From the NCBI GenBank assembly GCA_964106645.2, contig OZ067038.1: a DNA stretch of 64,000 nt; one strand, 5' to 3'. The position numbers were made by a program, and so were the translations under genes. Each line of letters opens with the position of its first letter. Position 1 is the stretch's first letter. Below are positions 1 to 6,900 of this stretch, piece by piece. A model generated the notes under the pieces. The model was not told where the DNA came from. It did not search any database and saw nothing but the letters and a program-made list of their open reading frames with translations. Source of the stretch: Podarcis pityusensis (lineage: Eukaryota).

Positions 1-134
1 AATGTTTTAATCATCTTGCAGCATTACAAAGTGTTGTCCTAACATGATAATTGATTGATAGTATCTGGTAGATACAAGATGAATTTTTCAAGAAAGCATT
101 TTAGTAAAATGTAAATAATTTTTTCCCCATACAG

Positions 135-3100
135 AGATTTCTAGCTCTATTATTGTGTCTTCTGAGGAAGAAAGAACTGAGAGTTACACCAGCGGCCTAC
201 AATTATCTGATAGAGATAAAACACTTGAACTCATGCCTGAAGATCCAGTTTATTCTAGCAGTTTAGAGGTGAAAAGGGAGAAGAGCAATGTCCCAACCTT
301 CCTCAAGCATGTGTCAAATGTTGAAATAAGTTTAGGAGATTTAGCTAGACTTTCTGTTGTAGTTACTGGGGATCCAAAACCACAGATACAATGGTATTTC
401 AATAGTGTTAAGCTGACATCATCTGCAGACTACAAGTTTGTGTTTGATGATGAAAACTATAGCCTCATTATTCTCTCCACAAAATTTGACCATGAAGGGG
501 AATATACTTGCATTGCTAGTAATATCCATGGAGAGACGGCCTGCTCTGCTTATCTGAAGGTCAATCCTAAGGGAGAGGAAAGGGAACTGGAGGCAGAATT
601 CACTGCAGAGAAGACAGGAAGTCCTCGACCTCCATATTTTGTTAGGAACCTAGATCCTGTTCAGTGTGCACAAGGTGCTCCTGCTGTGTTTGAGTACAAA
701 GTGGCTGGGGATCCCCCTCCAGAAATTCAGTGGTTTAGGGGAAACAACCAGATTTTCTCCTGTGCACAATACACTATCATTCATAATCGAGATGGTTCTG
801 GGTCACTAATGGTGAATAACTGCCAGGGGGTCGATGGTGGCTTATACATCTGTAAGGGAATCAACCTCATAGGTGAAGCCTCTAGCAGTGCAGAACTTCT
901 TGTTCTCTTAGACGTGCCTGGGGAGGCTCCATATAAGGAACAGAAGAGTAAACAGAAAACACGCACCAAGTCATATAAAGAAACTGTAAGTGACGAGGCT
1001 ACTGTCTCACGGATATATGCCGTTAAACTGCCTGGTGATGATAGGCATGATGGGCAGCATGTGATGTATACAATTGGAACTGAAGATAGGCATTCACTAC
1101 ATAGTGAAGTAGTAGACGTTTTGCAGGTGGCTTCCTACTCAACAGCTACTGTACAGCAGGAAGCCCTTGTGACCCAACAAGTAGCCTTGCTTGAGTCTCA
1201 CAAAGTTGGAGAAATTGCAGATCCATCATCTCAGGCCAATGAAAAGGTGGCTTCTTCAGCTTTTACCACAGGTGAGGTGAAGGAGCACCCCGGTTTCCTA
1301 GAGCAACACTCTGAACCAATTCAAAGCCCACCAATAGTCGAATTGCCAGGTTCCTGGTGCCACCAAGTTTCTGACATCTGTTTACCTGTTGTGGAGGAAA
1401 TAAACCAAGAAGACAAAGAAAAGGGGCTGCAAACCAAGCTTCCAGAAATGGTCAGGCCAATGTCAGCTATAGAGCAAACATCTCAATTTGCCTCCATTAT
1501 ATCTGAGGAGAAATATGTGGTAAGCCCCGGTGAGTCTGCTGTATTCTCAGTCCCAGGAGCTGAGGAAGTTATTGAAACCAGTGAGCCTAAACATGCAGTG
1601 TGTGTTCCTAGAATTGAGGGCATCCAAGAATTGTCCAAGGAAAGTTCTTTGGCAGACCACACACACAAGTGGGAGAATGTCACACCAGCTAAAGAACAAG
1701 GCAGCTTTTTTCAGTCTGTTGTAGCAGCAGAACAATGCAAGATAAGTGAAGCTCATGCTGAGGCAATTGATTATGCTGATTCACCTGCAGAAGTTCGTCC
1801 AACCCAAGAATCATCCAATGTATTACATGTGGCTACGATTGCCTCTGAACAGATGTTCCCCAAAGAGTCCGCCTTTGATGCAACCATTGCAGAGCAGCAG
1901 AAGGGCTCGCTGGAACAGGACAGGCTTGTCCAAACAGCTCTGGTTGCTGAAGAAAAGCAGCAGCTCTCTGATGAACACACTGAGGACCTTCCCAGGTTAG
2001 ACTGCGTGGTGGTAGCGGAAATCCAAAGAGAGGGTGAAAAGCCACTGCATTTGCCTGTTGTACATGGACAAGACTCGCTTCCTAGAGAAGAGCATTTTAG
2101 TTCTGAGGTGCCCCTGGAAGATGAGGCGCTGTCTAGGAAAAGCCCATGTTTGCTACACTGCTTAGTAACAGAAGAACAAGTCTCCACCTCTTGTGAAGAT
2201 GCTAAGCAGTTTCCTCCTCTGGCAGAGGCAGTTAGCATTCAGGTCACCCAGGAGCCCATTTCTGTGTTGCATCTCCAAACGAGCCAAACTGAGCAAGTGT
2301 TGCCTAAGGAAGGCATCTTGGCTGTACAAGAACCTGAACCCCAAAATGCTTTGCAGAAAGCTGAAATAATGCTCAAACGTTCTGTGGCGTCTGAGGAAAA
2401 AAACCAGATAGCTGCCGAGGCCCTAGAGGCCTTTCAGAGTGGCATTGCTGGAGAATACCCTGTGGCTATAGCAGAGCCTCAGCTTCGTAAGTGTCTGACC
2501 ACTGTGGCTGAGGAGATGCTTCTGCCCAAAGAGGAAATCCTCCCCGAAGTAGGAAAAGAGCAGAAAGCTACCCTGGGGAAGGAAGACTTTCAAACAGTGA
2601 TGCAGGTATCTGATGTGACTGAAGAGAGGGTCTTGGATGTCGGACATGCTGAGCCATTTGAGGCTGTTCAGGTCATGAGTTGTGAGGTGGTGTCTGAGCC
2701 CAGGTTGCCTTCAGAATCCACCTGCGTTGAGGAGCAAGGTGTTCCGATAGAGAGCATCGATCTCTTGGAAGCCACAGAGCAAGAATTTGCAGCCTGCATC
2801 CAAGAAGGTCAGTCAGTCAGGCTCCCGTTGTTATTGGAGGAAAAACAGCCATTAAAGGAAGAGCACTTGGACAAGATCGCAAGGCCAGATGCTGAGAATG
2901 TAAAGGCCCAAAAGCAACTGGGGCTGCTTATGGATGTGCCTGAAACATGGGAAAACAAAGTGCTTCGGAAAGAAGAAGAACTTGCAGTTGAGACTCCAGT
3001 ATGTTGTAGCTTAGATATGAAGGCTCAGATCAGAAGGGCCCTGAAAGTAGCTCTGACAAATGAACAGCACTTATTTCCATTGGATGCTTTCGATGATATT

Positions 3101-3998
3101 GAGAGTGTTCAATTAAAAACTGTAACAGTGATCAAAGAACCTAAACATGCAACATGTACTTGCCTTATAATCTTGGAAAGTTCCAATACTGCAGAAATAG
3201 CTCTCTCTCTAGATGGAATATATTCTCAGACAGCTGATTTCAAAAGTGAATTGCAAGCTGCTGTTCATTCCATTATTTATGATGAGAAACATGTTCTGAC
3301 AGCAGAGGAACCCAGTGCCATAGCAGAACCTAAACACCACAAGTTGCTTGCTTCTTGTTCACCTTCCAAACTAATGCAGTCTGCTACTGTAACTGAGACA
3401 CCTGTTCAGCAACAATCTGTCAGTAATATCATTGGTTCACCTGAGCCACATCATGCTTACCTGAGTACTGAATCAGAAATACAGGAGGAGCAACTTGTGT
3501 CTATTCAAGAAGTCCAAACTATTGCTCTAAGTGAGCACATTAAAGATGTAGGTACAACCACACTCACGCTTGATATTCCTGTAGCAGCAGCCCCAGCTGA
3601 GAGGTTAATAGATGCTCTAAAAGTGAAAGAGAGAAAGGAAGAACTTTTTGAGGAAAATGAAGAGGAGGCACATGTAGTTAAGGCTAGCAAACAAGAAGAC
3701 AGTCTGGTGAGCAGGGATTGTCCCATCATGCGCCAAAGTTTTATAGACACTGTTGTTGAAGAAGGTGACAGCGTAAGTCTTACTTCCATTATAGAAAATG
3801 TTAAAGTGGTGAATTGGTATTTTGGGGATAAGCTGGTATCTTCAGGAAATGAGTTCAAGTGCTTGCAAGACCATGACACATACACACTAGTAATCAACCA
3901 AGCATTCAAGGAAGTGCATCAAGGCGAGTACACCTGTGAGGCTCTGAATGAAGGTGGAAAAACAACAGCAGCAGCGAAACTCACAGTTGTAAAAAGAG
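135..3998 (+). CDS. TTN: N2B exon (human exon 49 equivalent): I24, I25, N2B unique sequence, I26
   Basis: acag|AG..AG|gttgga, 3864 nt; [33 protein letters not shown] match remembered human N2B. Confidence 0.95.
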
Positions 3999-6900
3999 GT
4001 TGGAATATGGGGATAAAATATTGCTTTCCTATTTTCACTCATTTGCTAACTGAATAGAACACACATATACATATTTGTATCTCTAGTAGCATTTTGGATA
4101 CAGATATAAGAAGTATATAAACTTCAGCTGTGCATCACCAAACTAATCACAAATCCTCCACTTTTTGTTTCCTCTTTAGAACTTTTATTTCTTTAAATAT
4201 ATTTCTTATTCACACCTTTTATTTGCATTTTGCACTTTTTGGTACTGAAACAAAATCAACTTTTGTTTCATGAATGATGATTGTTAAATAAAACTATTTG
4301 TAATTTCAGATTTTTTTAAAAGAGTGCATGTCTTAGGAGCACTTTCATCCCCATATCCACAGAGCAACTTGGTTCACTTTTCCTTTTCATTGCTACAATA
4401 AAGATGCAATCCTGAACACGCTTACTAGGGAGGAAGCCCCACTGAGCACAGTGAGACTTGCTTCTGAGTAGACGTGCCAAGAGATTGCACAGCACGTTGT
4501 AGAAGTCATTGCACCATTCTAGCATAATGTCACACATTTCATGTTGAAAATGTTCTGGTACAACCTGGTATAATTTCATATATCATGTTGTTTGCATGCC
4601 TTTAATAGTAAGTAGCACATCAGAGTATCTTCAGAGTTCCATTATGCACTGCAGTGTATGTAGCCCTCTGGTAGACTGGGCACTGCTTTCGGTTTGCTTT
4701 CACCTCTGACAACCATTTTTCTTTACAGCCACTTTCCTTGGATAGCTCATGAAACCACACATCTCATTTCTGTTGGTCACTTTATTAACAGTGTTTTGGA
4801 ATGTACACTTATAAGCACCATACATGCTATTAGTATTACAATATCCACATGAACGTGGATGGTTGTAACCACATTATTCTTTCACTTTTAACTTCAGTTG
4901 GACCCATACTGAGGAGAAGGCTGGAATCCCAAGAAGTCGCTGTGAACCACCTTGCCAAGTTCACCTGCGAGATCGAGATGGCGCCAGACGTACGGTTTCA
5001 ATGGTACAGAGCCGGTCGGGAAATCTATGATGGCGACAAGTATACCATACACACCGCTAATTATACATCCACTCTTCAAATCCCGAGACCGCAAGTAGTT
5101 GACTGTGGCGAATACAGCTGCAAAGCTTCCAATAAGTATGGCAGCGTAAGCAGCAAAGCAACCTTAACGGTAACTGGTAAGTGCGAGACATGAACCCTGT
5201 GCTGCTTCCTTGTTAGGTAACTGAACGTGTTCACCATTAGCATGTGGTAAAATGCATCTACGGCCAATAGCAGACTAAGGATTTCCATTTCTGTGCATAT
5301 AGAAATAGAAGAAAATACCAGGTATTTGGCCCCCAGGTTCAACGTACATATCCAGGAGCAAAAAATGTATTTTCATCGGAAGCTGAGTCAAAGAACAGAT
5401 TTGTAATTATTGTATATTATTTCTGAACTCTTTTAAGTGTGGAGGAAAACTTACGAATAATAAAGGGAATACTCTAGATGTGCACCATTTGGTACAAGCA
5501 CACACACTAAAAGCACCTCTCTCTAGTGATGGAAGAACTGCAGTTGGTGAAGGAGATTGTAGGCAAGAACTTCCACACTTAAAGCATTTCACACTGGGGT
5601 CGGGAGGAGAGAAGAATGCAGCAATGGCATGGATTGTGCCCAGAGGCATTTGAAATGTTTTTTGATTCCGTCATATTCACCTATAAACATTCGCTCTTAA
5701 ATGTCTTAAGCTTCTCAAAAAGATTATAGTATTAACTGAGTCGTCTGATCATGATCTTGCCTGGGATGCAGTCGATTTTATTTACTCTTTGAGATCCATG
5801 CTTACAGACGTAGTGGGTGGTGGGAGCCATCTTGAAGTGAATAAAGGATACATAATGACATCGCTCTTTTAAAAAGATCTCCCTAGGCCTTTTTATTACT
5901 ATAATAATTGCCTATACCTTTCATCTTACTGGAATCTGTATTGCTGGTTAATTCATGACATGCACTTCAAATCGTCACATGTAAACCTAATTTCATGACT
6001 AAATAACTCTTGCTAGATGGCTTTTAAAACTGCTCTTTTAGATAACAAATAACTCTGGCTAGATGGCTTTTAAAACTGCTAGATCATCGTAATGATTTAC
6101 TGGATGTATTGAGTCTTGGGAATCTTTACTGCACATTATTTCTAGGCAATTTAATGTGTGTATATGGAGACAGCGTTTCTGTCTCCTTTCTTTGGTGCTG
6201 GGGTGTGGGGAAAAGGTTGCTGTATTGGCCAAGTCCATGTCAACTTTCCCCCCTTTCTTTTGCAGAAGCGTTTCCTCCAACCTTTCTAACCAGACCCGAA
6301 TCTATTACTACTTTTGTGGGTAAGAGTGCCAGGTTCCTCTGCACAGTGGCAGGCACCCCCGTAATCGACACAGTGTGGCAGAAAGATGGTGCCGCCATTT
6401 CTTCCACAGAACACTGCAAGATTTCAGCTTCTGAGAATAAGCACAGTTTAGAGATTCCACGCCTCACAGTAAATGACAGGGGGGTATATACCTGCAAAGC
6501 CTCAAACAAATTTGGAGCAGACATCTGCCAGGCAGAAATAGCTGTCATTGATAAACCACGATTCGTCAAGGAACTGCAGTCTGTTCAGTCTGCAGTCAAT
6601 AAGAAGATACATCTTGAATGCCAAGTGGATGAAGACAGGAAAGTCACAGTATCCTGGAGCAAGGATGGAACCCGAATACCTCCAGGCAAAGATTACAAGA
6701 TTTGCTTTGAAGACAAGATAGCATCACTTGATATCCCTCTGTCTAAACTTAAAGATTCAGGAACATATGCATGCACTGCTGCAAATGAGGCTGGAAGTAG
6801 CTCTTCTTCGGCCACTGTAACAATCAGAGGTAAGGAAATTGTCGGCCTGCTAAACTTGGTGCCATTTATGTCCTCTTATTTATAGTAGTTGCGCTTCAGA

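What the first reader, a model, noticed from the sequence alone, without database searches (positions are those of the whole stretch)
1200..3400. The N2B 'unique' sequence is a cryptic 74-aa (about 2x37) tandem repeat array
Seen: an EE(K/Q)-type motif recurs at nt 1505, 1727, 1949, 2171, 2393, 2621, 2837, 3059 and 3281 (SEEKY, AAEQC, AEEKQ, TEEQV, SEEKN, TEERV, LEEKQ, TNEQH, YDEKH). The spacing is 222 nt except one +6/-6 offset. A second (L/F)PKE-type motif recurs at 1415, 1637, 1862, 2084, 2306, 2528, 2747 and 2969 with 219-225 nt spacing. The two motifs resemble each other (EEKQQLSDE vs QTEQVLPKE) and alternate about every 36-38 aa. Established: N2B-us is usually treated as a non-repetitive disordered spring. 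Inference: it arose from about 9-10 modules whose length is held much more strictly than their sequence, which suggests a spacing function such as register with a periodic partner (nebulin's actin modules are about 35 aa). I do not know whether this has been reported.
Basis: partly seen in the sequence, partly recalled or inferred. Interest (0 to 1): 0.75.

Follow-up and report, generated by a model that had tools for sequence, protein, structure and literature searches.

The report
Hidden 74-residue repeats in heart titin
The heart-specific spring of the giant muscle protein titin, long treated as a non-repeating sequence, is built from nine to eleven worn 74-residue repeats whose length is kept from skates to lizards but broken in mammals, and it likely works as an evenly spaced docking strip for LIM-domain signalling proteins.

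Summary
Confirmed. The window opens with the N2B exon of a lizard-like titin. Its 'unique sequence' has a 74-aa period: z 9-10 against shuffles whose best peak was 5.2. A lag-73/74 peak passes the shuffle threshold in 18 of 24 orthologues, including a skate and a frog. Repeats share only 9-20% identity with each other, so the duplications are older than the skate-tetrapod split. Length is held tightly: 0.64 indels per 100 mismatches in R2-R7, against 4.6-5.5 in the flanks and 2.2 in the Ig region. Birds lost the first repeats; mammals broke the register. The last 1.5 repeats are the folded N2B-us domain published in 2024; R2-R7 do not fold in AlphaFold2. The 2x37 split is only suggestive. My best mechanism (0.4, untested) is a stretch-presented docking array for four-LIM FHL proteins; a chain of marginally folded modules is the main rival. 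No report of the repeat was found in 10 literature searches.

The parts
133..3996 (+). Titin N2B exon (ends +/-2 nt): short leader, two Ig domains, unique sequence, one Ig domain
   Evidence: ORF 119-4057; three I-set stretches; contigs of runs X1, X2, X5 cover 133-3996 and join to 4896 at GT..AG, a contig of X6 enters at 4904 from another exon (RNA status of these runs is a guess of the tool)
293..562 (+). First Ig domain of the exon (I24 by the usual numbering, recalled)
   Evidence: Pfam I-set aa 59-148
632..907 (+). Second Ig domain (I25, recalled)
   Evidence: Pfam I-set, V-set stretch aa 217-262; start read from the sequence
1001..1414 (+). Two decayed outer repeats R-1 and R0 (EE-type anchors at nt 1082 and 1280); length not conserved
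   Evidence: above shuffle 95th percentile in 11 and 10 of 17 orthologues; 10.9 bits at aa 309-362
1415..1636 (+). Repeat R1 (degenerate; about 37 aa shorter in the teleost-like orthologues)
1637..1858 (+). Repeat R2, 74 aa
1859..2080 (+). Repeat R3, 74 aa, closest to the consensus; first half predicted helical
2081..2302 (+). Repeat R4, 74 aa
2303..2524 (+). Repeat R5, 74 aa
2525..2746 (+). Repeat R6, 74 aa
2747..2965 (+). Repeat R7, 73 aa, best conserved across species; first half predicted helical, second half disordered
2966..3187 (+). Repeat R8, 74 aa, part of the folded domain
3188..3307 (+). First half of repeat R9 (third strand and closing helix of the domain); the array fades after it
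   Evidence: profile match covers positions 15-50 only
3008..3304 (+). Folded domain (helix, short helix, three strands, helix) = R8 plus half of R9 = the published N2B-us structural domain
   Evidence: AlphaFold2 pLDDT 60-81; mammal-like us 354-468 maps to window aa 956-1071; PMC11530556
3722..3988 (+). Last Ig domain of the exon (I26, recalled)
   Evidence: Pfam Ig_2 aa 1202-1290
4896..5176 (+). Next titin exon (I27-type Ig, recalled), spliced to the N2B exon

Best explanation
[quoted passage not shown] Shown here: the array, its age, its length constraint, its loss of register in mammals. Shown in print for human: FHL2 binds at many sites along N2B-us, more under force, and one 115-aa part folds and hides sites until about 5 pN unfolds it. 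Predicted here: that folded part is modules R8 plus half of R9; R2-R7 stay largely unfolded with a helical first half in some. Inferred: a rigid chain of four LIM domains reads about 18.5 residues per LIM (74/4), which would penalise indels but tolerate substitutions; stretching the spring would bring the modules to the matching length and recruit FHL-bound kinases.
For: Array and conservation. Length constraint in the part that AlphaFold2 leaves unfolded: 11 indels per 1711 mismatches in R2-R7 against 46 per 909 in the flanks in 8 disjoint species pairs, binomial p about 1e-12; lower than the Ig region (12 per 559) and the folded domain (4 per 371). A free entropic spring would not need that. 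FHL1/FHL2 are the best characterised partners of N2B-us (PMC8553726 passages); the mapped FHL2 region us 79-308 corresponds to window aa about 624-917, late R3 to R7; FHL2 binds by antiparallel strand addition at many sites and binding rises with force (PMC11530556 sections 7, 8, 10). Known LIM-binding peptides use 8-10-residue motifs with 1-9-residue spacers (PMC4195752 passage), i.e. up to 19 residues per LIM, so 74 fits four LIMs at the upper edge. The unit shows a 9.25-residue acidic periodicity (p 0.02-0.04 family-wise within a property, five properties tried).
Against: No complex was modelled or measured here. Human N2B-us binds FHL2 although the mammalian register is broken by -41/-52, -9, -5 deletions, so the 74-aa register is not needed for binding. 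The other known FHL2 site in titin (M-band is2) does not match the repeat profile. The published predicted sites are 3-5 aa long with 5-15 aa linkers and were not described as periodic. A shift of 18-19 columns is not significant in the profile self-comparison (z 2.3). The hydropathy pattern of R2-R7 matches that of the folded R8 in register (r 0.41-0.53, best shifted control 0.22-0.31), which a folding constraint explains as well. Large deletions in frogs and squamate-like sequences are not whole modules.
Confidence: 0.4

Rival explanations
1. Every module folds, at least marginally, like R8-R9: a chain of helix + three-strand units closed by the half-module R9 as a capping helix. The non-mammalian N2B spring would then be a series of low-force unfolding units, and mammals kept only the last one.
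For: Indel rate as low as in folded domains; hydropathy of R2-R7 in register with R8; near-invariant hydrophobic columns in the unit; helices predicted at the same unit position in R2, R3, R5, R7, R8, R9; the array ends on a half unit that forms the closing helix.
Against: With the same alignment AlphaFold2 folds only R8-R9; R2-R7 stay at pLDDT about 35-45 apart from helices, and R7 does not pack on R8 in a shorter model. R1-R7 are less hydrophobic (0.28-0.30 against 0.36) and more acidic than R8. R4 and R7 carry conserved prolines in the helix segment. Alignments were shallow (32 and 39 rows), so low confidence is not proof of disorder.
Confidence: 0.25
2. The register is set by another periodic partner or by self-association (neighbouring titin strands, small heat-shock protein oligomers, an unknown I-band protein), with FHL binding incidental.
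For: The length constraint needs some template; N2B binds several other proteins (PMC8553726 passages); FHL2 binding survives loss of register in mammals.
Against: No candidate with a matching period was identified; no test was run.
Confidence: 0.17
3. The half-modules of about 37 residues lie along the thin filament, one per actin subunit, like nebulin modules.
For: Lag-37 signal in 9 of 24 orthologues; two deletions are close to one half-module (-36 in P0004; about -37 in teleost-like R0-R1); earlier negative tests may not apply to non-mammalian arrays.
Against: A review states that N2Bus3 showed no direct association with actin (PMC8553726 passage citing Yamasaki 2001); over-expressing the middle N2B region did not disturb thin filaments (PMC2150553 passage); R1-R7 are net acidic; the halves are unequal in character and only weakly alike; no nebulin or other Pfam repeat match.
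Confidence: 0.1
4. The period is a relic of how the exon grew; today the region is only an entropic spring and the low indel count reflects a dense set of unrelated short motifs.
For: Repeats are only 9-20% identical; birds lost about three modules and mammals broke the register.
Against: Indels per substitution are 7-8 times rarer than in the flanks of the same exon and rarer than in its Ig region; skate and lizard align over 555 residues with two 1-residue gaps.
Confidence: 0.08

Closest known systems
Titin N2B unique sequence (N2B-us, N2Bus3) and its 115-aa structural domain (PMC11530556)
   Same: Same exon, same element; the folded domain has the same make-up (three strands, two helical regions) and maps to R8 plus half of R9.
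   Different: The paper, its preprint and supplements do not describe a sequence repeat (term searches); they treat the rest as unstructured peptide. The lizard-like element is about 934 aa against 572 in human and keeps the register.
Tandem beta-zipper LIM-interaction domains (LDB1-LID, ISL1-LBD, DEAF1 on LMO/LHX proteins; PMC4195752 passages)
   Same: Disordered chain with short hydrophobic motifs at 9-19-residue spacing that could add strands to tandem LIM domains.
   Different: Those are single 30-residue segments for two LIMs; this is a 9-11-fold array of 74 residues. No sequence match to a LIM-binding family was found.
Titin Z-repeats and PEVK PPAK repeats
   Same: Tandem non-Ig repeats inside titin; Z-repeats bind a partner, PPAK repeats are elastic.
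   Different: Different length (about 45 aa recalled; 26-28 aa), exon-encoded and easily seen; no profile match anywhere else in the titin locus. The N2B array lies within one exon and is highly diverged.
Nebulin modules (about 35 aa, actin-binding; recalled)
   Same: Length-conserved, sequence-divergent modules of similar half-period.
   Different: No nebulin motif or Pfam match; acidic; published evidence against actin binding.
SEK repeats of invertebrate I-connectin (recalled, about 41 aa)
   Same: Glu/Lys-rich repeats in an I-band titin spring; a recalled resemblance only.

Membership tests
Titin N2B element | One large exon with Ig-Ig-unique sequence-Ig, followed by the next I-band Ig exon | tested here: met
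   neighbours upstream (novex-3-type exon) and downstream (kinase, M-band)
Titin N2B element | Alternatively spliced: included in some transcripts, skipped in others | tested here: met
   contigs of X1, X2, X5 join 3996 to 4896; a contig of X6 reaches 4904 from another exon; runs are from related organisms and only guessed to be RNA; tissue not shown
Tandem protein repeat array | Significant periodic self-similarity against composition controls | tested here: met
Tandem protein repeat array | Units recognised by a profile built without them | tested here: met
   R1-R9; the window's own R8 scores only 4.7 bits
Tandem protein repeat array | 2x37 internal duplication | tested here: inconclusive
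N2B-us structural domain (PMC11530556) | About 115 aa, three strands with two helical regions, at us 354-468 | tested here: met
   prediction; position, through mammal-like orthologues, not the human sequence
Tandem beta-zipper LIM-interaction domain | Binds tandem LIM domains in an extended, fixed register | not tested
   the complex predictor was not available; binding of human N2B-us to FHL2 is published
Tandem beta-zipper LIM-interaction domain | 8-10-residue motifs with 1-9-residue spacers | tested here: inconclusive
   9.25-residue acidic period, p 0.02-0.04 uncorrected for five properties; 18-19 shift not significant
Nebulin-type actin-binding modules | Match to the nebulin repeat profile | tested here: not met
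   no such Pfam family for the ORF or for 21 units
Nebulin-type actin-binding modules | Binds F-actin | not testable with these tools
   reported negative for the mammalian sequence
Folded solenoid-type repeat protein | All units adopt one fold | tested here: inconclusive
   only R8-R9 fold in two AlphaFold2 runs on 32- and 39-row alignments; no fold match at E <= 0.001

The most novel reading that the evidence does not exclude
The ancestral cardiac N2B spring of jawed vertebrates is an unrecognised repeat family: 9-11 modules of 74 residues, each a force-gated unit that is marginally folded or templated by one four-LIM FHL protein, so that the spring counts stretch in module steps. Birds shortened it, mammals broke its register and kept one folded module, which changed the element from a modular sensor into the mostly disordered spring studied in human and mouse.
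Probability: 0.35. Interest if true: 0.8.

Novelty: new variant of a known kind. Interest (0 to 1): 0.62.

Why it matters
N2B-us is one of three springs of cardiac titin, a phosphorylation and FHL-signalling hub, and carries cardiomyopathy variants. It is modelled as non-modular and disordered because it was studied in mammals, where the period has faded (lag-74 z 2.2-2.8 in three mammal-like sequences). A repeat frame gives residue-level equivalences between the folded domain and the rest, natural construct boundaries, a way to read variants by unit position, and a direct test of how FHL2 engages titin. It also says that fish and reptile N2B (the zebrafish heart models) may not behave like the human one.

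Tried and rejected
Chance or composition artefact: rejected. Recent DNA-level duplication or assembly artefact: rejected, no long DNA repeats, repeats 9-20% alike, relatives' contigs collinear without indels. Repeat in novex-3 or elsewhere in titin: no match among 1680 plus-strand ORFs of 314 kb around the gene, no lag-37/74 peak in four novex-3 ranges. Non-titin homologues of the unit: none; profile search gave 9 hits among 7986 scored candidates of 131-2000 aa, all N2B-type (weak evidence; giant proteins were outside the length range); none in PDB sequences, Pfam or the ESM Atlas. Fold searches of both models: no match at E <= 0.001 in PDB or BFVD; the VIA-align searches were never available. 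Whole-module indel rule: not seen. Stacking of R7 on the folded domain: not predicted. FHL2-repeat complex prediction: tool not available, no result. A genome-wide profile scan was not possible; a single-protein search found only this locus. No RNA holder was listed on record as RNA. Earlier findings of this scan: none. Literature: 10 searches found no description of the repeat; most subscription papers (including the original titin sequence papers and the comparative connectin papers on chicken, turtle and zebrafish) are not in the library, so absence from print is not established.

Full report
What the locus is. The window starts with a 1312-codon open frame at 119-4057 holding three I-set Ig domains around a 934-residue linker. 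The best named relative is a Phrynosoma protein at 64% identity, so the genome is lizard-like. The next exon at about 4896-5176 is an I-band Ig exon. Contigs of three public runs from related organisms cover 133-3996 and join to 4896 at GT..AG; a contig of a fourth enters the next exon from elsewhere, skipping this one (the tool only guesses these runs to be RNA). A novex-3-type exon lies upstream and the kinase and M-band exons downstream. This is the cardiac N2B exon of titin; domain numbers I24-I27 are recalled.

Autocorrelation peaks at lag 74 (z 8.9-10.1), 148 and 221, above the best peak of any of 1000 shuffles per range (maximum 5.2). The unit consensus from 115 units of 18 orthologues is PKE..L....Pqe..A...egq.lLhsa.aEEqq.L.eEHte.Lp..e..v.v.v.kEPk.pL.Lqvv.e..vL. 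Leaving out one repeat position at a time, the profile still recognises R1-R9. Two further decayed units lie upstream, so there are 8.5 clear and up to about 10.5 units. The 2x37 split is only suggestive: under threshold in the window and in the profile test, above it in 9 of 24 orthologues and in a galliform sequence.

It is old and its length is guarded. Orthologous exons came; named ones are a skate (Rhinoraja), a frog (Leptodactylus), an arowana (Scleropages), galliform birds and beaver; the rest are unnamed and assigned by likeness. A lag-73/74 peak passes the shuffle threshold in 18 of 24 sequences; the six misses are P0009, P0017, P0018, P0025 and the mammal-like P0023 and P0028. Different repeat positions share 9-20% identity while the same position shares 27-38% across species, so the duplications precede the skate-tetrapod split and have not been homogenised. 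108 of 126 R2-R8 units are 73-74 residues. Skate and lizard align over 555 residues at about one third identity with two single-residue gaps. In 8 disjoint pairs (the bird and mammal pairs left out of the totals) R2-R7 have 0.64 indels per 100 mismatches, the folded domain 1.08, the Ig region 2.15 and the flanks 4.6 and 5.5 (pairs still share some tree branches, and the upstream flank includes the decayed units). Against a strict rule: larger deletions exist and are not whole units (-36, -63, -31, -67, -20 in non-mammal or unassigned sequences; -41, -52, -9, -5, -5, -1 in beaver and P0023), though two sit near one half-unit; some unnamed assemblies may be artefacts. Bird sequences lack everything before mid-R4 but keep the register after it; mammals break it, and beaver has z 2.8 at lag 74, under threshold. 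That explains why the repeat is hard to see in human and mouse.

It is confined to this exon. The profile matches nothing else among 1680 plus-strand ORFs across 314 kb of the titin locus, novex-3 and the M-band included, nothing in Pfam, PDB sequences or the ESM Atlas, and only N2B proteins in a limited database search.

Structure. AlphaFold2 on the whole array (32 rows) folds only aa 963-1060; a shorter run (39 rows) gives helix, short helix, three strands, helix at pLDDT 60-81 and leaves the second half of R7 disordered. This is R8 plus the first half of R9. Through mammal-like orthologues it maps onto us 354-468, the 115-residue domain that PMC11530556 predicted and confirmed with magnetic tweezers (sections 6, 7, 8, 10 read). 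So the one known folded part of N2B-us is made of repeat units, its two long helices one period apart. Foldseek finds no fold match at E <= 0.001. R2-R7 share the hydropathy pattern of R8 in register but are less hydrophobic and more acidic.

Mechanism. A stretch that varies freely in sequence, is predicted mostly unfolded, and yet refuses indels needs either a template or a marginal fold. The best documented partners are FHL1 and FHL2 (PMC8553726 passages). The FHL2 pull-down region corresponds to late R3-R7; FHL2 adds strands at many sites and binds more under force. Known LIM ligands use up to about 19 residues per LIM (PMC4195752 passage); four LIMs would read about 74, and the unit has a weak 9.25-residue acidic rhythm. 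I therefore favour a stretch-presented FHL docking array with a folded latch at its end (0.40). This step is inferred: the complex could not be modelled, human N2B-us binds FHL2 without the register, and the is2 site does not resemble the repeat. A chain of marginally folded modules (0.25) fits the indel and hydropathy data as well and is compatible with cryptic FHL sites. Another template (0.17), actin register (0.10; against it) and a neutral relic (0.08) follow.

Novelty. Titin N2B-us, its spring role, its FHL partners and its folded domain are known. A sequence repeat was not found in 10 searches, nor by term search in PMC11530556 with its three readable supplements (one spreadsheet unreadable), its preprint (supplements closed), PMC8553726, PMC12241362, PMC11033294, PMC13649281, PMC12198301 and PMC2150553 (passages only); the last calls the element nonmodular. 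The bioRxiv paper on ABLIM1 was seen as abstract and outline only. Subscription papers were not searched. Verdict: real, probably unreported, a new repeat type within a known protein; mechanism open. Interest 0.62.

Noticed in passing
G000:C1, about 14.6-6.2 kb upstream of the window (L003/L002), 2801-codon ORF: The novex-3-type exon carries a near-exact 8-residue Ser/Thr-Pro tandem repeat (ERYSTPSE type, about five copies) before its C-terminal Ig domains, a cluster of possible proline-directed kinase sites; its unique region has a weak 45/90/135-residue periodicity (z 3.1-3.9 against thresholds of 3.4-3.5).
   Followed up: partly
L039 (G000:C20:50681500-50691400) and L040/L041 (G000:C19:14143000-14157000): Two near-identical FHL1-type genes on different large contigs; either a duplication or two sex-chromosome copies.
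   Followed up: no
window 4400-4480: A short intronic stretch between the N2B exon and the next exon draws unrelated contigs with loose ends in three runs, as a small interspersed repeat would.
   Followed up: no
L061 (about 252 kb from the window start, downstream of titin): A 1558-codon open frame with protease-, reverse-transcriptase- and integrase-like motifs, an apparently intact LTR retrotransposon; observed only.
   Followed up: no
P0017 (unnamed): An Ala/Arg-rich N2B orthologue that keeps R3-R8 in register but has lost about 30 residues inside the folded domain; its taxon would help to date the loss of register in amniote lineages.
   Followed up: no
P0028 (unnamed, mammal-like): N2B-us of only about 347 aa that keeps little more than R7 to R9, the shortest seen; may be real or an assembly artefact.
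   Followed up: no
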